A DNA stretch of 64,000 nucleotides, taken from NCBI RefSeq assembly GCF_006345805.1, contig NC_043004.1, positions 64,046,001 to 64,110,000 of the forward strand, written 5' to 3'. Below are positions 19,341-51,640 of this stretch, piece after piece; within the stretch, counting starts at the first letter, position 1; every line of letters begins with the position of its first letter. The translations under genes were made by a program, and so were the position numbers. The notes below the pieces were generated by a model that searched no databases, had not been told where the DNA came from, and saw only the letters and a program-made list of their open reading frames with translations. Source of the stretch: Octopus sinensis (taxonomy: Eukaryota).

Positions 19341-20222
19341 AAGAGGGGTGTTCATTAAAGATTTCTCCTGACCCACTTCTGGTTGTTGCAGGAAATATAA
19401 CTTGTACAGGTATAATTATACATGCATGTATATGTCACATTGTGAATTACAGCTTTCCACTAGTATTCGTTTGTCTTCTACGGCTGCTGAAGTGTCTTCA
19501 GGTGTGATAATGGAGGTAGTTGAATTCAGATCAGTGAACAGGTTCTTATACTTGAAAGGTCGTACAACAAAAGAGACTTTCGATGAGATGAAAGTTTGTT
19601 GTCACGATGCACCATCGTACGACATCGCCAGTTTAAATATGGTCAGACTTCGGTGGAAACTGCTCCTATTCCTGGACGACTACATTCAGCCATTGATGAC
19701 GATAACATGTATAAAGTGGAAGTTGCCATTTTGGAGGATCGCCGCATTACTATTTATCAACTAGCCCAAGAACTGAAGATAAGTGTAGGTTCCGTGCAAA
19801 AAACCAAAAAAATTATTCACGACCATTTGCACATACAGAAGTTGTCTGCACGATGGACTCCCCGGATGTTCAGTCATTTGCTCCTAGGTTCTTTTGGCAA
19901 TATGCGAAGAAAACGCGGACTCTTTCAACAGACTTATCACACCGGATGAAACAGGAGTCCATCGCTATGATCCTGAGACTAAAGTACCGTCAAAGCAATG
20001 GAAGCATGATAAATCACCACCTACAAAGCAGGATCGTGTCCAACCCCTAGCGAGCAAAGTGAGGCTCACTGTCTTTTGGGACCAGCGTGAGGTAGTGATG
20101 ATAAATTTTCTGGCAAAGGGCACCACAATTAACGCAGCGTATTATGCTACCCTGCTGCAGAAATTGCAGAACACCATCAAAGCAGAGAGGCGTGGCAGAG
20201 AGGTAAAGCCGTGGCCCCTGAC
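19341..20222 (+). mobile_element. Mariner transposon, 5' TIR and 3'-truncated transposase pseudogene (copy 1)
   Basis: TIR-like AGAGGGGTGTTCATTAAAG; EFRSVNRFLYLKG, EDRRITIYQLAQELKISVGSV, KLSARWTPRM (WVPR motif), LITPDETGVHRYDPETK, KVRLTVFWD, GTTINAAYY; frameshifted. Confidence 0.93.
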
Positions 20223-20229
20223 GCATACA

Positions 20230-22246
20230 CATGTATGTATGTATGCATGTATGTATGTATGTATGTATGTATGTATGTATGTATGTATGTTGTATGTATG
20301 TATGTATGTATGTATGTATGTATGTTTGTATGTATGTATGTATGTATGTATGTATGTATGTAGTATGTAAGTATGTTATGTATGTATGTATGTATGTATG
20401 TATGTATGTATGTATGTTATGTAGTATGTATGTATGTGTGTATGATGTAGTATGTTTTGTATGTATGTTGGTATGTGATGTATGTATGTATGTATGTATG
20501 TATGTTGGTATGTATGTTTATGTATGTATGTATGTATGTATGATGTATGTATATATTATGTAGTATGTATGTATTATGTATGTATGTATGTATGTATGTA
20601 TGTATGTATGTATGTATGTATTGTATGTATGTTGTATGTTTGTATGTATTTTGATGTATGTATGTATGTTATGTATGTATGTATGTATGTATGTATGTAG
20701 TATGTTTTGTATGTATGTATGATGTATGTATGTATGTATGTATGTATGTATGTTTGTATGTATGTATGATGTATGTATGTATGTATGTTTGTATGTATGA
20801 TTATGTATGTATGTATGTATGTATGTGTGTATGTATGTATGTATGTGTGTATGTATGTATGTATGTGTGTATGTATGTATGTATGTGTGTATGTATGTGT
20901 ATGTATGTATGATGTATGTTGTATGTATGTATGTATGTATGTATGTGTGTATGTATGTATGTATGTGTGTATGTATGTATGTGTGGTAGTAGGTTGTATG
21001 TATGTGGTATGTATGTATGTATGTATGTTGTATGTATGTGGTATGTATGTATGTATGTTGTATGTATGTATGTATGTAGTATGTATGTATGTTGTAGTGT
21101 ATGTATGTATGTTTGTATGTATGTATGTATGTATGTATGTTTGTATGTATGTATGTATGTTTGTATGTATGTATGTATGTATGTAGTTAGTATGTATGTA
21201 TGTATGTATGTTGTATGTATGTTGTATGTATGTATGTATGTATGTAGTATGTATGTTGTATGTATGTATGTATGGTGTATGTATGTATGTATGTATGTAT
21301 GTGATGTATGTATGTATGTATGTTGTAGTATTGTATGTATGTTTGTAGTATGTATTAGTATGTATGTATGTTGTTTGTAGTATGTAGTATGTATGTATGT
21401 ATGTATGTATGTATGTATGTAGTATGTAGGTATGGGTAAGTATGTATGTATGTTTGTAGTATTTGTATGTATGTATGTATGTATGTATGTATGTTTGTAT
21501 GTATGTATGTATGTTTGTATGTATGTATGTATGTATGTATGTATGTATGTATGTATGTAGGTATGTATGTATGTATGTATGTATGTATGTGTATGTATGA
21601 TGTGTTGTTGTATGTATGTATGTATGTATGTATGTATGTATGTTTGTATGTATGTATGTATGTATGTATGTATGTATGTATGTTTGTATGTATGATGTAT
21701 GTATGTATGTATGTATGTATGTATGTATGTTGTATGTTTGTATGTATGTATGTATGTATGTATGTAGTATGTATGTATGTATGTATGTGGGTATGATGTA
21801 TGTATGTATGTATGTATGTATGTATGTATGTTATGTATGTATGATGTTTGTATGTATGTATGTATGGTATGTATGTATGTATGTATGTATGTATGTATGT
21901 ATGTATGTATGTTTGTATGTATGTATGTATGTATGTATGTATGTATGTTTGTATGTATGTATGTATGTATGTATGTATGTATGTATGGTATATGTATGTA
22001 TGTATGTATGTTGTATGTATGTATGTATGTATGTATGTTGTATGTGTAGTTGTATGTATGTATGTTGTATGTATGTATGTTTGTATGTATGTATGTATGT
22101 ATGTGTGTATGTATGTTTGTATGTATGTATGTATGTATGTATGTATGTATGTATGTATGTATGTATGTATGTGTATATGTTGTATGTATGTATGTATGTA
22201 TGTATGTATGTTATGTATGTATGTATGTCGTATGTATGTATGTATG

Positions 22247-22277
<31 letters not shown>

Positions 22278-23070
22278 TGTTTTATGTATGTATGTATGTT
22301 TGTATGTATGTATTATGATGTATGTATGTGGTATGTATGTATGTTTGTATGTATGTATGATGTATGTATGTATGTATGTATGTATGTATGTTTGTATGTA
22401 GTATGTATGTATGTATGTATGTTTGTATGTATGTATGTATGTGATGTATGTATGTATGTATGTATGTGTATATGTTTGTATGTATGTATGTATGTATGTA
22501 TGTATGTTTGTATTATGTATGTATGTATGTATGTATGTATGTATGTTGTATGTTATGTATGTATGTAGTTATGTATGTATGTAGTATGTATGTATGTATG
22601 TTGGTATGTATGTATGTATGTTTGTATGTATGTATGTATGTATGTATGTATGTATGTATGTTTGTTATGTATGTATGTATGTATGTATGTATGTATGTAT
22701 GTATGTATGTATGTATGTTGTATGTTGTATGTATGTATGTATGTATGTATGTATGTATGTATGTATGTATGTATGTATGTATGTATGTATGTTTGTATGT
22801 ATGTATGTATGCATGTATGTATGTATGTTTGTATGTATGTATGTATGTATGTATGTATGTTTGTATGTATGTATGTATGTATGTATGTATGTATGTATGT
22901 ATGTATGTATGTGTGTATGTGTGTATGTATGTATGTATGTTTGTATGTATGTATGTATGTATGTATGTATGTATGTTTGTATGTTTGTATGTATGTATGT
23001 ATGTATGTTTGTATGTATGTATGTATGTATGTATGTATGTATGTATGTATGTGTGTATGTATGTATGTAT
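20230..23070. repeat. ~2.8 kb imperfect (TATG)n array, copy 1
   Basis: Direct reading; source of the MYVC-repeat ORFs. Confidence 0.97.
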
Positions 23071-23235
23071 TAGATCATTCCATAAACAATGCGGTTTTTT
23101 TAAATTGCATGAACTCAAAGTCGGAGGGGAACTGGATAAACTACTTGCATCAACTTGCTATCAAAGCAGGTATTCATTTTAACTTGTACTTATTCTTAGT
23201 ATAAGTTTTGAAGCGTGCTGTTCGATTTTAACAGA
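23068..23235 (+). mobile_element. Probable mariner 5' terminus fragment, repeated at 27101-27270
   Basis: Starts TATTAGATCATTCCATAAACAATGCGGTTTT, resembling a mariner TIR and the reverse complement of the TIR at 558-585. Confidence 0.55.
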
Positions 23236-23240
23236 CATAC

Positions 23241-23273
<33 letters not shown>

Positions 23274-23309
23274 TTAGATATATATATATATTATACAACA
23301 TACACACAC

Positions 23310-23350
<41 letters not shown>

Positions 23351-23395
23351 CTCACCAATTATTACATATATATATACATACACATATATATACAT

Positions 23396-24281
23396 AAGAG
23401 GGGTGTTCATTAAAGATTTCTCCTGACCCACTTCTGGTTGTTGCAGGAAATATAACTTGTACAGGTTATAAATACATGCATGTATATGTCACATTGTGAA
23501 TTACAGCTTTCCACTAGTATTCGTTTGTCTTCTACGGCTGCTGAAGTCGTCTTCAGGTGTGATAATGGAGGTAGTTGAATTCAGATCAGTGAAACAGGTT
23601 CTTATACTTGAAAGGTTCGTACAACAAAAGAGACTTTCGATGAGATGAAAGTTTGTTGTCACGATGCACCATCGTACGACTCGCCAGTTTAAATATGGTT
23701 CAGACTTCGGTGGAAACTGCTCCTATTCCTGGACGACTACATTCAGCCATTGATGACGATAACATGTATAAAGTGGAAGTTGCCAGTTTGGAGGATCGCC
23801 GCATTACTATTTATCACTAGCCCAAGAACTGAAGATAAGTGTAGGTTCCGTGGCAAAAAAACCAAAAAAATTATTCACGACCATTTGCACATACAGAAGT
23901 TGTCTGCACGATGGACTCCCCGGATGTTCAGTCATTTGCTCCTAGGTTCTTTGGGCATATGCGGAAAACGAAAACGCGGACTCTTCAACAGACTTATCAC
24001 ACCGGATGAAACAGGAGTCCATCGCTATGATCCTGAGACTAAAGTACCGTCAAGCAATGGAAGCATGATAAATCACCACCTACAAAGCAGGATCGTGTCC
24101 AAACCCTAGCGAGCAAAGTGAGGCTCACTGTCTTTTGGGACCAGCGTGAGGTAGTGATGATAAATTTTCTGGCAAAGGGCACCACAATTAACGCAGCGTA
24201 TTATGCTACCCTGCTGCAGAAATTGCAGAACACCATCAAAGCAGAGAGGCGTGGCAGAGAGGTAAAGCCGTGGCCCCTGAC
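23396..24281 (+). mobile_element. Mariner transposon pseudogene (copy 2 of 19341-20222)
   Basis: Near-identical to copy 1, including the truncation point; differs mainly by single-base indels. Confidence 0.93.
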
Positions 24282-24289
24282 GCATACAC

Positions 24290-24300
24290 ATGTATGTATG

Positions 24301-24332
<32 letters not shown>

Positions 24333-24386
24333 TGTATGTATGTATGTTTGTATGTATGTATGTATAGATGTATGTATGTTTGTATG

Positions 24387-24417
<31 letters not shown>

Positions 24418-26057
24418 TGTAAGTATGTAAGTATGTTATGTATGTATGTATGTATTAAGTATGTATGTATGTATGTATGTATGTATGTGTGTATGTATGT
24501 ATGTATGTTTGTATGTATGTTTGTATGTATGTATGTATGTATGTATGTATGTATGTATGTATGTTTGTATGTAGTATGTATGTATGTATGTATGTATGTA
24601 TGTATATATATATGATGTATGTATGTATGTATGTATGTATGTATGTAGTATGTATGTATGTATGTATGTATGTATGTATGTATGTATGTTTGTAGGTTTG
24701 TATTATGTATTATGTATGTATGTATGTTTGTATGTATGTATGTATGTATGTGATGTATGTATGTATGTTGTATTGATGTATGTATGTATGTATGTATGTA
24801 TGTATGTATGTATGTGGTATGTATGTATGGATGTATGTATGTCTGTATGTTTGTATGTATGTATGTATGTATGTATGTATGTATGTATGTGTGTATGATT
24901 GTATGTATGTGTGTTGTATATGTATGTATGTGTGTAGTATGTATGTAATGTATGTGTATGTATGTATGTATGTATGTAGTATGTATGTATGTATGTATGT
25001 GTATGTATGTATGTTGTATGTAGTATGTATGTGTGTATGTAGTAGTATGTGTGTATGTATGTATGTATGTTGTGTGTAGGTATGTAGTAGTATGTATGTA
25101 TGTATGTATGTATGTAGATGTATGTATGTTTTGTATGTATGTATGTATGTATGTATTATGTATGTTTGTATGTATGTATGTTGTTTGTATGTATGTATGT
25201 ATGATGGATGTTGTCTGTATGTATGTATGTTTGTAGTATGTTGTATGTTATGTATGTTGTATGTATGTATGTATGTATGTTTGTATGTATGTATGTATGG
25301 ATGTATGTATGTTGTATGTTGTATGTATGTATGTATGTTTGTATGTATGTATGTATGTAGTATGGATGTATGTATGTAATGTTTGTATTGGTGTATGTAT
25401 GTATGTATGTAGTATGTATGTATGTTATGTATGTCTGTATGTATGTATGTATGTATGTATGTATGTAGGTATGTATGTAGTAGTATGTATGTATGTATGT
25501 ATGTAGGTATGTAAGTATGTATGTATGTATGTATGTAGTATGTATGTATGTATGTATGTTTTATTGTATGCTGTATTTGTTTGTATGTATGTATGTATTG
25601 TATGTATGTATGTATGTATGTATGTATGTAGTATGTATGTATGTATGTATGTATGTATGTATGGTATGTTTTGTATGTATGTTGTATGTATGTATGTATG
25701 TATGTATGTTTGTATGAGTATGTTGTATGTATGTAGTATGTATGTTTGTAGTATGATGTATGTATGGTATGTATGTATGTATGTATGTATGTTGTTTGTA
25801 TGTTGTATGTATGTATGTTGTATGTATGTATGTATGTATGTATGTATGTATGTGTGTATGTATGTATGTATGTATGTATGTATGTATGTATGTTGTATGT
25901 ATGTATGTATGTTTGTATGTATGTATGTTGTTTGTATGTATGTATGTATGTATGTATGTATGTATGTATGTAGTATGTTTTTGTATGTATGTATGTATGT
26001 ATGTAGTGTAGTGTGTATGTATGTATGTATGTATGTATGTATGTATGTATGTATGTG

Positions 26058-26089
<32 letters not shown>

Positions 26090-26198
26090 GTATGTATGTA
26101 TGTATGTTTGTATGTATGTATGTATGTATGTATGTATGTATGTATGTATGTTGTATGTAGTATGTATGTATTGTATGTATGTGTTGTATGTATGTATG

Positions 26199-26230
<32 letters not shown>

Positions 26231-27100
26231 TGGATGTGTATATGTGTATGTGTATGTATGTATGTATGTTGTTTGTATGTATGTATGTATGTATGTATGT
26301 ATGTATTAGTATGTATGTATGTATGTATGTATGTATGTTTGTATGTATGTATGTATGTTTGTATGTATGTATGTATGTATGTATGTAGTATGTATGTATG
26401 TATGTTTGTATGTAGTATGTATGTATGTATGTATGTATGTATGTATGTATGTTGTATGTCTGTATGTATGTATGATGTATGTTTGTTGTATGTATGTATG
26501 TATGTATGTATGTATGTATGTATGTGTATATGTTTGTATGTATGTATGTATGTATGTATGTATGTTTGTATGTATGTATTGTATGTATGTTGTATGTATG
26601 TGATGTGTATGTATGTATGTATGTATGTATGTATGTATGTATGTATGTATGTATGTATGTTTGTATGATTATGTATGTTTGTATGTATGTATGTATGTAT
26701 GTATGTATGTATGTATGTTGTGTATGTATATGTATGTATGTTATGTATGTATGTATGTATGTATGTATGTATGTTTGTATGTATGATGTATGTATGTATG
26801 TTGTATGTATGTATGTATGTATGTATGTATGTATGTATGTTTGTATGTATGATGTATGCATGTATGTATGTATGTTTGTATGTATGTATGTATGTATGTA
26901 TGTATGTTTGTAGTATGTATGTATGTATGTATGTATGTATGTATGTATGTATGTAGTGTGTATGTGATGTATGTATGTATGTGTATGTATGTATTGTATG
27001 TATGTATGTATGTTTGTATGTTTGTATGTATGTATGTATGATGTTTGTATGTATGTATGTATGTATGTATGTATGTATGTATGTAGTGTATGTATGTATG
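24290..27100. repeat. ~2.8 kb imperfect (TATG)n array, copy 2
   Basis: Direct reading. Confidence 0.97.
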
Positions 27101-27274
27101 TATTAGATCATTCCATAAACAATGCGGTTTTTTAAATTGCATGAACTCAAAGTCGGAGGGGAACGGATAATAAACTACTTGCATCAACTTGCTATCAAAG
27201 CAGGTATTCATTTTAACTTGTACTTATTCTTAGTATAAGTTTTGAAGCGTGCTGTTCGATTTTAACAGACATAC

Positions 27275-27314
<40 letters not shown>

Positions 27315-28774
27315 GAGGGATGTTGTTTGCCGCTCGCAGTCCCTTTGAACATATCATGAGTCTCGTGATATTTGTGTGGCTATTCTAGTTATATTTTTAG
27401 CTCTTATTTCTAGCAATTGTAGGTGCTATTTTGTACCCTTAATTATGTATTCTAATTTAATTTTAATTGCTTTAGCCACCTATATTATAACTTATTAAAT
27501 ATATCATATATTAATTTATCGTTATATCTTATTGTATGTATGTAAGTATGTATGTATGTATGTTATGTATGTATGTATGTATGCATGTATGCATGTATGT
27601 ATGTACGTACATATGTACGTATGTGTGTATGTATGTATGTATGTATGTTGTATGTATGTATGTATGCATGTATGCATGTATGTATGTATGTATGTATGTA
27701 TGTATATACTCGACTATATTCAATTTTCATCATTATATTATTTTTCATCAACGAAGTTTCTATCGGAAATAATGCAAAAGAGAGTATACGTTTACTTTTT
27801 AGCAGACACAGGCCTTTAAAATTCCACATTTAATAAGTTTTTTTCTTCCTCCTTATTGTAGGCAAACAATAGGTTCCATGCAGATGCAAGGTACCATATT
27901 CAAGTCCTTATCTTTAGAAAAGGACTTGAATATGAGTGATGGCTATCTGAGGCCAACAGAAAGCAAACCCTTGTTTACTAAAAGCACATTGGTTTATAAG
28001 TCAGTACAGTCGGTACAGAATTGTTGTGTTTACGTCCCCAGATGATGAAGTGGGCTAGCCCAGTACGTAGATATAGAGGGAGAATTCTGGACGTCAGAGT
28101 TGAGTAGAGGTTATGCGAACGTGCGATATAACAAGAATGATGAGAAACTTTAACGGGGAGTATACCTGCCCTGAAAACAAACAAATCGCGCAGTGGGGAA
28201 GAATCAATAATGAACAGTGATATGAATGGCCAGTGAGTGATTGAAATGACTCACGCGGACAGGCGAGTCATAAATACTGTATTTACTTTGTAGGTGAACT
28301 GTTATAACAATGCATAACAGATGACGAAAACCTTTCGGGTATCGGGAATTATTACACTCCCCTACACACCATATATACATTGCAGTACAATTTTATGTTG
28401 CCTAAAATATGTCGTGACCAATTATCTGGAATCATTTCGTGTGCAAAGATGCAACTCTCCAAGACTCAAAAATATTTAAATAAATATGTTAAATATATTA
28501 AAAAAGAGTAATTAAGAAACTTATTTGTAATAAAAATCTTAACTACAAATCCCTGAAACCATCTATAGTTAAGAGTGCGGTAGCGAATGCTTATAAATGC
28601 TTATTAACATGTTTTCGTCCCTGTTTGATTTGGTCCCTAGAATCATAATTATAATTCGTTCGTGGTTTTTAATTTATCTCTTGTCATATCCTTCACTGGC
28701 TATTCATTTGTGAGGGAGGGAATTGTTTGACCAGAGATCAATAGTATCATTTATCTTTTACATTTTATCTCTTA

Positions 28775-37520: not shown

Positions 37521-38476
37521 CTAGCAGTATAACCCGGCCTTGCTCGGGACTAAGTTACGATTATTAAGCTAATCAAGTTCTTTACTTCAAACCAAACTGA
37601 GTAATATAGACGTCAAATTTGGGCGAAATCAGTTGAAATTAGTTATATTATATATATTATATATATTATATATTATATATATATAATATAATATAAATAT
37701 ATGTAGGCAACAGACACGAACACACATACACACACGTACATACGTACACCTATTGCATGTTTTATGGACGCATACATGTTCATAAACAGAAATGAATGAA
37801 AAAAATGTTGTTAAATTTGTAGATTAACACTCGCACGATTTTCACTAAAGTATATATACTATGATTATAAAATATAGTGTCTTTCAAAAACCAAAAAACA
37901 AAACATTTTACATTTTATTTTTTTTGAACGTCATAACTTTCTCTCTCTCCCACTTTCACTCTTTCTTTCCCGTGAAACTCTCTGCCTCCTTCTTCCACTT
38001 TTCTTTATCTTTTTTTTTTTTGTTAGACGCTGGCAAAAAAGCTAAGGCTGTTTATTAACGTCATTTAATCTCTGTCTCTCCCTCTCTCACTTTTTCTTTT
38101 CCGTGAAACTCTCTGCCTCCTGCTTCCACTTTTCTTTATCTTATTTTTTTTGTTAGACGCTGGCAAGAACGTTGTCATTTACTCTCTGTCTCTCCCTCTC
38201 TCACTTTTTCTTTCCCGTGAAACTCTCTGCCTCCTTCTTCCAATTTTCTTTATCTCATTTTTTTTTGTTAGACGCCATAAAAAAGCCAAGGCTGATATCT
38301 TTCGTGGTTAAAAGCTATGTCTGAAAATAGATATTTACGCTACCCACGGGTGCCTCGGAGAAAAAAATAAGTTGACAAGACCCAGATAGGATGTTGACAA
38401 ATGTCCTCCTAAAATTTCAGCGACATGCGTGCTAATTTGTGGACGTGCATAAATTACAATCACGCACACACACACA

Positions 38477-40535: not shown

Positions 40536-40567
<32 letters not shown>

Positions 40568-41101
40568 GAAACGTATCCCATAAAACTCAACGAATTTGTT
40601 AAGTGTGGAGAAGAGAAGATATTAAAACTTAAGAGAATTTTAGTTGATGCATGCGATCGTTTCACACAGCGATATTAAAACATGCAAATTCATGGTTGAA
40701 TAGAAATAATTAAATCAATTTGATTAAATTAAATTCATTATATATCACTGTTCTCCTCAGCGCAACAGTTGTAGTTTATACCTAGCTGGACTCTGATTCT
40801 TTTTTATGATGCTCGTATTTCTCATAAGGATAAATATGAATATCCAAAATCATTCTCTGCCATTTCATTTATCATGTCTTCTATAATAACTTTTTGTTTA
40901 TACTTCTTGCACTGAGGAGAACAGTGATATATAATTAATTTAATTTAATCAAACTAATTTAATTATTTCTATTCAACCATGAATTTGCATGTTTTAATAA
41001 CGCTGTTTGAAATGATCGTATGCATGAATTAAGATTCTCTTAAATTTTAACATCTCTTCTCCATTTTTAACAAATTTGTTGAGTTTTGTGGGATACCTTT
41101 C
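40568..41101. repeat. Foldback inverted repeat (~195-bp diverged arms, ~140-bp spacer)
   Basis: 40568-40765 is the reverse complement of 40907-41101, with scattered substitutions. Confidence 0.93.
40908..41024 (+). ncRNA. Type I hammerhead fold with 90-nt stem II (mirror copy on the minus strand at ~40648-40764)
   Basis: TGCA CTGAGGA GAACAGTG...CGCTGTTT GAAA TGATCG TA TGCA. The 8-bp stem II base pairs fully (two G:U); the mirror copy has a perfect CGATCG stem III. Confidence 0.75.
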
Positions 41102-41248
41102 CATAAATTCACGTAACACACCATATTCTAGTATTATTTGCATATTTGCAAACTTACGCCAGTAAGCTACCAGCAGAATATGAAGAATCTATATTAGAAA
41201 TCGCTTTTTGGAGTCCTTCAAATTAAAGGACAAAATATAACTCAAACT

Positions 41249-41309
<61 letters not shown>

Positions 41310-41312
<3 letters not shown>

Positions 41313-42327: not shown

Positions 42328-42402
<75 letters not shown>

Positions 42403-42413
<11 letters not shown>

Positions 42414-42925
42414 CATTAAAAGGCTTCCAAATAAAGAAGCGAGTGCTAGATACACACACTGGTAATAATAATTTATTTTTATTACCCTATTTACTATGTT
42501 TAAATATTGCTCGATAAATTTTTACCGGCATCCTCTCTGTCGCCGGGTATGATTTGCGTCTGCGCTCTAATCTGAAAAGTTAGGGTATATAGATCGTTAG
42601 ATTTGCACGTGCTTCTAACGGTATGTACATCTCGGATTACAAAGGCTTCCTGCTGATGATTCTGGCCTTGGCAGATAAATTCTATTCATTTGCAAAAAAA
42701 AAATGATGAAACCGCGGTACAGGATTAGCTGAGTTGGTAAACGTTTTTGATTTTCATCCCTTTCATGAATGTATCCCCTTTTTGTGTAATTAGCACTCGC
42801 TTCTTTATTTGGAGGCCTTTTAATGTATTTATATATGAATAACATATAGTCTAACGACTAATTCGTCTTTTGTGCTAGACCACTGTAATAATAATTTATT
42901 TTTATTACCCTATTTACTATGTTTA
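42403..42925 (+). mobile_element. Retrozyme/PLE pseudo-LTR-like non-coding element in a (TA)n tract
   Basis: 41-bp direct repeat at 42462-42502 and 42885-42925 (423-bp period). 42403-42448 is an inverted copy of 42791-42836. Central hammerhead; (TA)n on both sides. Confidence 0.75.
42648..42724 (+). ncRNA. Type I hammerhead ribozyme fold
   Basis: TCCTG CTGATGA [48-nt stem II region] GAAA CCGCGG TA CAGGA. Perfect stem I, intact core, palindromic stem III, predicted GUA cleavage site. Confidence 0.8.
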
Positions 42926-51034: not shown

Positions 51035-51640
51035 CAAGGTGGCCATAAAGTCATGCACCATCCTGCAATATGTGAAATTGCTAACATTCCCTTTTTCTAT
51101 CTCCTTTCAAAACTGCCGATATTACTCACAAACCTATCCTCATTGGATCGAAATAGATAATCAATAAGCCGGAGGCCAGGTAATGTTGTGGGATTTGGCA
51201 CAATCAAGTAATTGGACCATTTTATTTTGTGGGCTCTGTGACAGGTGATTCGTATCTGGACATGCTTGGCAACAAGATGATGCCTAACGTGCATTCACTT
51301 GGAAGCGGGATCTTGTTTGGTTTCAGCAGGATGGAGATCCGCCCCCATTATGCATTTCAGGTTCGTGATTTTCTGAATGGTACCTGGCTCGGTCGTTGTG
51401 GGCCGATCGACTGTGCACCACTTTCACCAGATTTATCTTTCTTCTGGGGCTACATTAAAACCCTTGTGTATTCTGAAATGATTCGGGACGAAGGAAATCT
51501 TCTGCAAAGAATTGTTGAAGCTTGTGAACAAATCAACGAGAAAGAAGAGCTATTTAAGGGGGTTCATCGCAATTTCAAATTCCGCATGAACACTTATTTA
51601 GCGCGACTTCGTGAACACTTCGAACATTTGTAATGGATTA
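51035..51640 (+). mobile_element. Decayed Tc1/mariner-superfamily element, DD41D (rosa)-like transposase C-terminus
   Basis: TA-CAAGGTGGCCATAAAGTC TIR-like start; IGPFYF.GSVTGDSYLDML, FQQDG (frameshift) PHYAFQVRDFLN, WLGRCGPIDCAPLSPDLSFFWGYIKTLVY, ending HFEHL*. Family assignment is by motif memory. Confidence 0.82.

What the first reader, a model, noticed from the sequence alone, without database searches (positions are those of the whole stretch)
40568..41190. Older foldback with a hammerhead whose stem II is ~90 nt
Seen: CTGAGGA and GAAA are 90 nt apart but closed by an 8-bp helix (GAACAGTG/CGCTGTTT). The arms complement each other's defects: the right arm has the TA cleavage site but TGATCG, the left has CGATCG but CA. 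The ancestor would be GAAA-CGATCG-TA. Inference: hammerheads with such long stem II would be missed by searches that cap helix length, so this class may be under-annotated.
Basis: partly seen in the sequence, partly recalled or inferred. Interest (0 to 1): 0.7.

Follow-up and report, generated by a model that had tools for sequence, protein, structure and literature searches.

The report
Long-armed hammerhead ribozyme in jumping genes
This is a worn, head-to-head remnant of a known kind of animal jumping gene; its family carries a likely self-cutting RNA with one arm three to four times the published length, a design found thousands of times in this genome and too long for a published search pattern.

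Summary
Observation confirmed. The foldback is a 5'-truncated 3' end of a Hydra-clade Penelope-like retrotransposon (40767-41255, +) with a shorter inverted copy at its 5' end (40765-40568, -), inserted in microsatellite. This is the published insertion pattern.

The ancestral motif needs no reconstruction: 133 genomic copies carry the exact core with a 60-119 nt spacer (reversed control 0). The base of helix II covaries across subfamilies. A young sister family with an intact 960-codon frame keeps an unrelated 85-nt arm. One loop-III type has 2,256 long-arm against 2,232 short-arm hits. Published Hydra-clade arms are 10-24 nt, and a published descriptor allows about 25 nt, so under-annotation is plausible. 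Rfam, however, misses short copies too.

The arms' 'complementary' defects are independent decay. Read-through RNA is predicted to bury the ribozyme in a ~200-bp hairpin. Cleavage is untested. The scan noted this class before in other genomes. Verdict: new variant of a known kind.

The parts
40767..41255 (+). 5'-truncated 3' end (end of 3' UTR plus pseudo-LTR with tail) of a Hydra-clade Penelope-like element
   Evidence: 90.9% identical to the family consensus over 559 nt. Longer copies run 5' into endonuclease and RT frames. The 3' end matches the family's +235 end class.
40568..40765 (-). Inverted, shorter 5'-truncated copy directly abutting the 5' end of the main copy (left arm of the foldback)
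   Evidence: 92.2% identical to consensus over 205 nt. Ends at about +91 from the cut site, near the family's +100-117 end class.
40904..40911 (+). Right hammerhead, helix I 5' strand (pairs with 41021-41028: 4 bp, a U-U mismatch, 3 bp)
   Evidence: MFE fold; per-position pairing in 50 copies
40912..40918 (+). Right hammerhead, core CUGAGGA
40919..41008 (+). 90-nt helix II domain: ~12-bp basal helix, variable AT-rich hairpin, small CATG...CATG hairpin
   Evidence: The CATG hairpin is exact in 26 of 50 copies.
41009..41020 (+). GAAA, decayed palindrome TGATCG (family CGATCG) and predicted cut site after GUA at 41020
   Evidence: CGATCG in 20 of 35 unselected copies, with departures mostly at CpG sites.
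40652..40760 (-). Left hammerhead: intact core and palindrome, but C in place of the U before the cut site and an A-G mismatch in helix II
41130..41255 (+). One-sided 'tail' of about 125 nt, present on the main copy only
   Evidence: Family 3' ends are bimodal, at about +100-117 and +235 or beyond
40550..40567 (.). (TA)n microsatellite flank, left (target; no target duplication can be read)
41252..41310 (.). (CA)n(TA)n microsatellite flank, right

Best explanation
The stretch is a decayed, 5'-truncated insertion of a Hydra-clade Penelope-like retrotransposon with an inverted shorter copy at its 5' end, and each copy carries the family's type I hammerhead motif, which likely cut the parent element's RNA, probably as a dimer paired through the palindrome, despite a 60-100 nt helix II arm. 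Shown: element identity, insertion anatomy, core conservation, covariation of the basal helix, and abundance. Inferred: in full-length tandem elements (pLTR-ORF-pLTR) two hammerheads pair via ACGAUCGU and cleave after GUA/GUC, trimming read-through transcripts. The distal arm is most likely tolerated, self-paired filler, selected only to close the helix next to the core. Cleavage must be slow or followed by re-ligation, because copies extend about 110 or 235 nt past the cut site. This particular locus is predicted to be inactive in vivo.
For: Anatomy; it matches the published 'inverted 5'-truncated copy' and one-sided tail (PMC8557442 passages). Clade: long family copies carry RT and endonuclease pieces similar to the intact sister frame (tblastn E to 2e-23). 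That frame has RWR, DKT, CxCX5C, CxxC..E and CxH and lacks GxKF and DKG, as described for Hydra. Core: 133 exact copies, control 0. Covariation in 50 copies: pair 2 A-U 20 / U-A 26; pair 4 C-G 37 / U-A 7; pair 5 A-U 29 / G-C 10; pair 8 G-C 20 / A-U 16. 339 of 400 cells pair, against 293 +/- 6 (maximum 317) in 5,000 shuffles; variants sort by supported clades. RNAalifold predicts only this helix, with 4 of 5 pairs compensatory. An intact copy folds as a dimeric hammerhead, 10.4 kcal/mol better than two monomers (L084). The young sister family keeps an unrelated 85-nt rod. The arm interior varies from 60 to 100 nt.
Against: No cleavage data. Pfam gave no hit for the 960-aa frame and only a sub-threshold GIY-YIG hit in one family copy (E 0.002); the PDB sequence search found nothing. 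The clade call therefore rests on motif matching to one paper. Only 7 of 35 unselected copies keep all four core motifs. MFE folds of several copies do not give the hammerhead; one of three cofold tests (L081) paired helix II between molecules instead, and L066 formed the stem III duplex without helix I. Helix I of the young family is only 2-3 bp. A 2-bp helix III with a tetraloop may allow monomer cleavage (PMC7761336 and PMC7229834 passages), so 'dimer' is not obligatory. In a lizard PLE, hammerhead cleavage was not needed for insertion in vitro (PMC11167929). The shuffle test does not remove relatedness; the compensatory changes amount to about four events, not 50.
Confidence: 0.72

Rival explanations
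1. Same element, but the long arm is itself a selected module: a folding brake that delays cleavage until the RNA has been copied, or a docking site for the element's protein or a host factor.
For: Long arms occur in two endonuclease lineages only ~41% identical and in about half of the CAGCTG-type hits. In the young lineages the whole arm is a stable rod (z -4.7 and -5.6). Copies extend past the cut site. A small CATG hairpin persists in two forms across subfamilies.
Against: No sequence is shared between the arms of different families. Length drifts freely with AT-rich repeats. Related Hydra-type elements in the same genome have 22-, 45- and 53-nt arms.
Confidence: 0.18
2. The motif is a catalytically dead hammerhead-shaped structure, kept as an RNA fold or promoter-region element of the retrotransposon.
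For: All copies run across the cut site. PLE hammerheads show low activity in vitro. No reads began or ended at the site in the lizard element.
Against: Every catalytic nucleotide and an H at the cut site are kept in unrelated families while the stems change completely.
Confidence: 0.08
3. The conserved letters belong to an antisense coding exon and splice acceptor (the core's reverse complement resembles a pyrimidine tract plus CAG), and the foldback is a MITE-like DNA element.
For: The minus strand shows a nearly open ~85-codon frame in this copy.
Against: The longest minus-strand frame in the consensus is 65 aa, matched by 54 of 1,000 shuffles. It does not explain the helix covariation, the palindrome or the link to an RT-endonuclease frame. 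The arms are unequal and truncation points vary among copies.
Confidence: 0.02

Closest known systems
Hydra clade of C-terminal-endonuclease Penelope-like elements (Craig et al. 2021, PMC8557442; e.g. Hydra-1_Obim)
   Same: RWK-like, DKT, CxCX5C, CxxC and CxH motifs; C-terminal GIY-YIG-type endonuclease; (TA)n targets; sense-strand type I hammerhead near the 3' end; inverted 5'-truncated copies.
   Different: Published helix II domains are 10-24 nt in 26 Hydra rows; here they are 60-100 nt. Published elements are mostly under 3 kb; the young sister unit is about 5.6 kb with a ~2.1-kb UTR before the hammerhead. The tail is about 125 nt rather than 30-40 bp.
PLE hammerheads with small palindromic helix III (Cervera and de la Pena 2014, PMC4209133; dimer cleavage per Lunse et al. 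2017, seen only as cited)
   Same: Type I topology, short helix I, palindromic helix III, location in pseudo-LTRs, opposite-strand pairs 100-700 bp apart.
   Different: Their 'larger than usual' helix II is 7-8 bp; here it is a ~12-bp helix plus 40-75 nt of further structure.
PLE-X1_sMoe hammerhead (spike moss; Craig et al. File S2)
   Same: PLE hammerhead with an enlarged loop 2, about 53 nt core to core; flagged there as non-canonical.
   Different: Plant, endonuclease-less element; shorter arm; listed for single families only.
Discontinuous Clec2 hammerhead of rodents (Martick et al. 2008, as reviewed in PMC2950038)
   Same: Precedent that large insertions hide hammerheads from pattern searches.
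   Different: That search reasoned from insertions in loop 1 or 3; the hits are in host 3' UTRs, not mobile elements.

Membership tests
Penelope-like elements (endonuclease-bearing) | RT followed by C-terminal GIY-YIG endonuclease in one frame | tested here: met
   Not in the window copy (truncated). Family copies carry RT and endonuclease fragments in this order, homologous to an intact 960-aa sister frame. Pfam support is weak.
Penelope-like elements (endonuclease-bearing) | Partial tandem forming pseudo-LTRs; inverted 5'-truncated copy at the 5' end; one-sided tail | tested here: met
   Inversion and tail in the window; pLTR-ORF-pLTR tandem in sister locus L066.
Hydra clade | RWK and DKT motifs; no GxKF/DKG; CxCX5C linker; CxxC and CxH around the catalytic E and N | tested here: met
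   Sister frame: RWR (not RWK), DKT, CNCRNKNKC, CSLCINE, CIH; GxKF and DKG absent. The finding's own family shows the CxCX5C linker and CxxC (L043); its RT N-terminus was not recovered.
Hydra clade | Insertion into (TA)n | tested here: met
   Both flanks are microsatellite with (TA)n; the same holds for many copies.
Hydra clade | Placement in the clade on an RT tree with reference sequences | not tested
   Only a within-genome endonuclease tree was built.
Hammerhead ribozyme, type I | Core CUGANGA, GAAA and NUH around three helices, with helix I open | tested here: met
   The right arm has all core nucleotides; the left arm lacks the U of NUH; 133 exact family copies.
Hammerhead ribozyme, type I | Helix II closed next to the core, with covariation | tested here: met
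Hammerhead ribozyme, type I | Match to an Rfam hammerhead model | tested here: not met
   No hammerhead hit in 5 long-arm loci or 3 short-arm loci, so the miss does not discriminate. None among the 150 of 315 window matches shown.
Hammerhead ribozyme, type I | Loop I-loop II tertiary contact of fast canonical hammerheads | not tested
   Reported as lacking in PLE hammerheads.
Hammerhead ribozyme, type I | Site-specific self-cleavage | not testable with these tools
   Contig coverage was uninformative.
Non-LTR retrozymes | Short head-to-tail non-coding tandem repeats, each with a hammerhead | tested here: not met
   Copies are dispersed, head-to-head or single, and link to an ORF.

The most novel reading that the evidence does not exclude
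Long-arm hammerheads are a distinct and very abundant ribozyme class (thousands of copies in one genome, invisible to capped descriptors). In this reading the extra helix II domain is a working module that times cleavage or docks the retrotransposon's protein, which would explain how Penelope-like elements keep a ribozyme yet copy RNA that runs across its cut site.
Probability: 0.2. Interest if true: 0.72.

Novelty: new variant of a known kind. Interest (0 to 1): 0.44.

Why it matters
What hammerheads do in Penelope-like elements is an open question. This genome offers a natural series within one clade, with helix II arms of 22, 45, 53, 72, 85 and 90-96 nt, including a near-identical young family with an intact frame. 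That makes the effect of arm length on cleavage, dimer dependence and reverse transcription directly testable. It also suggests that counts from capped descriptors could miss about half of some hammerhead types in such genomes. The locus itself is an ordinary dead insertion.

Tried and rejected
Rfam scans gave only microsatellite-driven miRNA noise or nothing.

The antisense reading frame and splice-acceptor idea was not significant against shuffles.

An intron inside the arm was rejected by inspection: no AG acceptor in the consensus arm.

Functional complementation between the arms: a heterodimer could on paper form one canonical site (from the sequence). But it needs both strands transcribed, and a read-through RNA folds into one ~200-bp hairpin (-266 kcal/mol, z -30). 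Rejected as biologically unlikely.

Expression: no RNA holder was on record for the young family. Of four runs laid on part of it (three guessed RNA, one unlabelled; contigs only), one had a gap over the cut-site bin, one had no cover upstream, and one had a contig bridging the site. This is no evidence either way.

Single versus repeated origin of long arms: the endonuclease tree (43 of 52 rows; 9 under 100 aa left out) has an unresolved base.

Pfam and PDB searches of the intact frame were blank.

A relaxed search across other mollusc genomes could not be done: no relatives are held.

Two key papers (Lunse 2017, Arkhipova 2017) could not be read.

Full report
1. Observation. The sequence holds an inverted repeat with arms at 40561-40765 and 40907-41108, 88.3% identical over 205 nt. 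On the + strand the right arm reads helix I, CTGAGGA (40912), a 90-nt spacer closed by 8 consecutive pairs, GAAA, TGATCG, TA, TGCA. The left arm, on the - strand, reads CTGAGGA, 90 nt, GAAA, CGATCG, CA.

2. The family. A DNA search of G000 (2.72 Gb) gave 46 matches from 40 scored of 954 candidates. In 35 motif-spanning copies from 28 loci not selected for the motif, CTGANGA was intact in 27, GAAA in 29, CGATCG in 20 (departures mostly at CpG) and UH in 32; all four were intact in 7. Exact-pattern counts: CTGANGA-N60-89-GAAACGATCGTHTGCA 106 hits and N90-119 27 hits, reversed controls 0. So the 'ancestor' exists in real copies. Against the family consensus the two arms share no change (181 columns identical, 16 left-private, 8 right-private). 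The complementary defects are therefore independent decay.

3. The carrier. Homology ends sharply at the 3' side in microsatellite and is ragged at the 5' side. Long copies extend through a ~1.8-kb UTR into an endonuclease frame and RT fragments. In the window, the main copy covers 40767 to about 41255 and the inverted copy starts 2 nt away at 40765. Family 3' ends fall at about +100-117 or at +235 and beyond from the predicted cut site, and foldbacks typically have one of each. Craig et al. (PMC8557442; passages, section 11, supplement part 2 and supplement passages seen) describe this inverted 5'-truncated copy and one-sided tail for Penelope-like elements.

A protein search found a sister family, ~41-43% identical in the endonuclease, with intact 960-codon frames and 98-99% identical copies in pLTR-ORF-pLTR tandem. 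Its motifs (RWR, DKT, CxCX5C, CxxC..E, CxH; no GxKF or DKG) fit the Hydra clade description and resemble by eye the Hydra-1_Obim text in the supplement. Against this, Pfam and PDB gave no hit for this frame, and no tree with reference elements was made. The host is not told; a cephalopod is my guess.

4. Is the long helix real? I took 50 exact-core copies: rows 2-42 in genome order except row 23 (already held), plus the 10 loci, out of 133. I paired the spacer ends without alignment. Positions 1-12 pair in 30-49 of 50 copies. Two-sided changes occur at pair 2 (A-U 20, U-A 26), pair 4 (C-G 37, U-A 7), pair 5 (A-U 29, G-C 10) and pair 8 (G-C 20, A-U 16). 339 of 400 cells pair at positions 1-8, against 293 +/- 6 (maximum 317) in 5,000 partner shuffles. 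Slid registers give 82-184 of 400, against 332. The variants follow supported clades, so they are a handful of events in master elements, not 50 independent ones, and the tree included the motif columns. Positions 6-7 are mismatched in one large subfamily. RNAalifold on these 50 plus both arms predicted only the basal helix II, with 4 of 5 pairs compensatory. The interior is 60-100 nt of AT-rich hairpin plus a CATG hairpin (26 of 50).

5. How general. The young family has an unrelated, GC-richer 85-nt arm that folds as one rod (z -4.7 for L069), with palindrome CAGCTG and a GUC site. CTGANGA-N70-99-GAAACAGCTGTH has 2,256 hits (control 3), against 2,232 for N6-35 (control 1). Short-arm CGATCG motifs number 620 (control 2; a looser pattern than the long-arm one). 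Spacers of 34-59 nt (CGATCG) and of 36-69 and over 99 nt (CAGCTG) were not counted, and a few hits are nested in both lists. Of 14 long CAGCTG hits folded, 11 close a helix within 1 nt of both cores. Arm lengths tied to Hydra-type endonucleases are 22, 45, 53, 72, 85, 93 and 96 nt, plus 90 nt for the finding's family; 45, 72 and 96 come from inverted copies beside the frame. Long arms sit in two lineages; one origin is neither shown nor excluded.

6. Mechanism. Shown: the anatomy above. Inferred: as for other PLE hammerheads (PMC4209133, parts 1-2 of 4 read), two motifs pair through the palindrome to give an 8-bp helix III and cut after GUA/GUC. An intact copy cofolds in just this way (-10.4 kcal/mol against two monomers); a second copy did not, and the young copy formed only the stem III duplex. 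Monomer cleavage through a 2-bp helix III is possible (passages). Because the copies extend beyond the cut site, the template RNA was uncut or re-ligated there. This agrees with in vitro work on a lizard PLE, where uncleaved RNA was the main substrate (PMC11167929 passages). The simplest reading of the long arm is tolerated, self-paired filler on a helix that needs only its base; a regulatory role is the live alternative. At this locus a transcript crossing both arms is predicted to form a single long hairpin that buries the ribozyme, and the left arm lacks the U of NUH (its requirement is recalled knowledge), so the locus is probably inert.

7. Literature. In Craig's File S2, 26 Hydra rows have helix II domains of 10-24 nt; the longest of any row is about 53 nt, in a spike-moss element marked non-canonical. 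The example descriptor of Cervera and de la Pena allows stem II 3-7 bp, loop 2 3-10 nt and only 2 nt between GAAA and UH (one supplement file not searchable). Craig's core search used a 7-17 nt spacer, with unspecified relaxed versions. Eight searches and passages of PMC13725137, PMC7229834, PMC7761336, PMC3088659, PMC7936874, PMC2950038 and bioRxiv 10.64898/2026.07.22.740005 (also part 1 of 5) showed no report of 60-100 nt helix II arms in animal PLEs. Lunse 2017 and Arkhipova 2017 could not be read, bioRxiv supplements were not seen, and subscription papers are not covered, so absence from print is not established. Rfam misses both long and short copies, which weakens arm length as the sole cause of under-annotation. 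Earlier notes of this scan describe the same class in other genomes; my reading was fixed before that look-up, and the notes are not counted as evidence.

8. Verdict. A real feature in an ordinary dead insertion of a known clade. The ribozyme architecture, its covariation and its abundance make it a new variant of a known kind. Activity and any role for the arm remain untested. Interest 0.44.

Noticed in passing
window 42390-42925; hammerhead 42653-42719 (+): A second PLE-like foldback/tandem from another repeat family (78 matches from 40 scored of 1,216 candidates). Its hammerhead has a 44-48 nt helix II domain that seems to hold two hairpins with a weak closing stem, and the palindrome switches between CTGCAG and CCGCGG among copies. 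One copy lies beside a Hydra-like endonuclease fragment.
   Followed up: partly
L066:1-7270 (G000:C26:1190500..) and L065: Young, apparently recently active Hydra-type family: intact 960-codon frame, 5.6-kb unit, tandem pseudo-LTRs, and 3' ends in two classes about 180-190 nt apart. The best substrate for biochemistry.
   Followed up: partly
L074:322-1866 (-): A separate Penelope-like element with RVT_1 and weak GIY-YIG hits, a CX4CxxC linker (Neptune-like by the published description) and a GAAA-CCGG-TC motif in inverted repeats.
   Followed up: no
window 19372-20367 and 23693-24106 (+): Broken mariner-type transposase pieces in two similar copies; Transposase_1 hit E 1.4e-18 for 19888-20250, none for the other pieces.
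   Followed up: partly
window 51184-51630 (+): A 149-aa frame that looks by eye like a Tc1/mariner transposase C-terminal piece; no Pfam hit at E 0.01.
   Followed up: partly
window 40994-41231 (-): Nearly open ~85-codon antisense frame over the pseudo-LTR; not significant against shuffles in the consensus.
   Followed up: yes
L008:165-263, L073:1675-1765, L155, L157: Further hammerhead-like motifs with 52-69 nt arms and other palindromes (CGATCG, CGCGCG, CATATG), met by chance in flanks. They suggest a continuum of arm lengths.
   Followed up: no
window 38000-38284: Tandem repeat of about 115-130 nt units, 80-95% alike.
   Followed up: no
window 20001-28000: Strong GC and AT skew over 8 kb, probably from simple-repeat tracts.
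   Followed up: no
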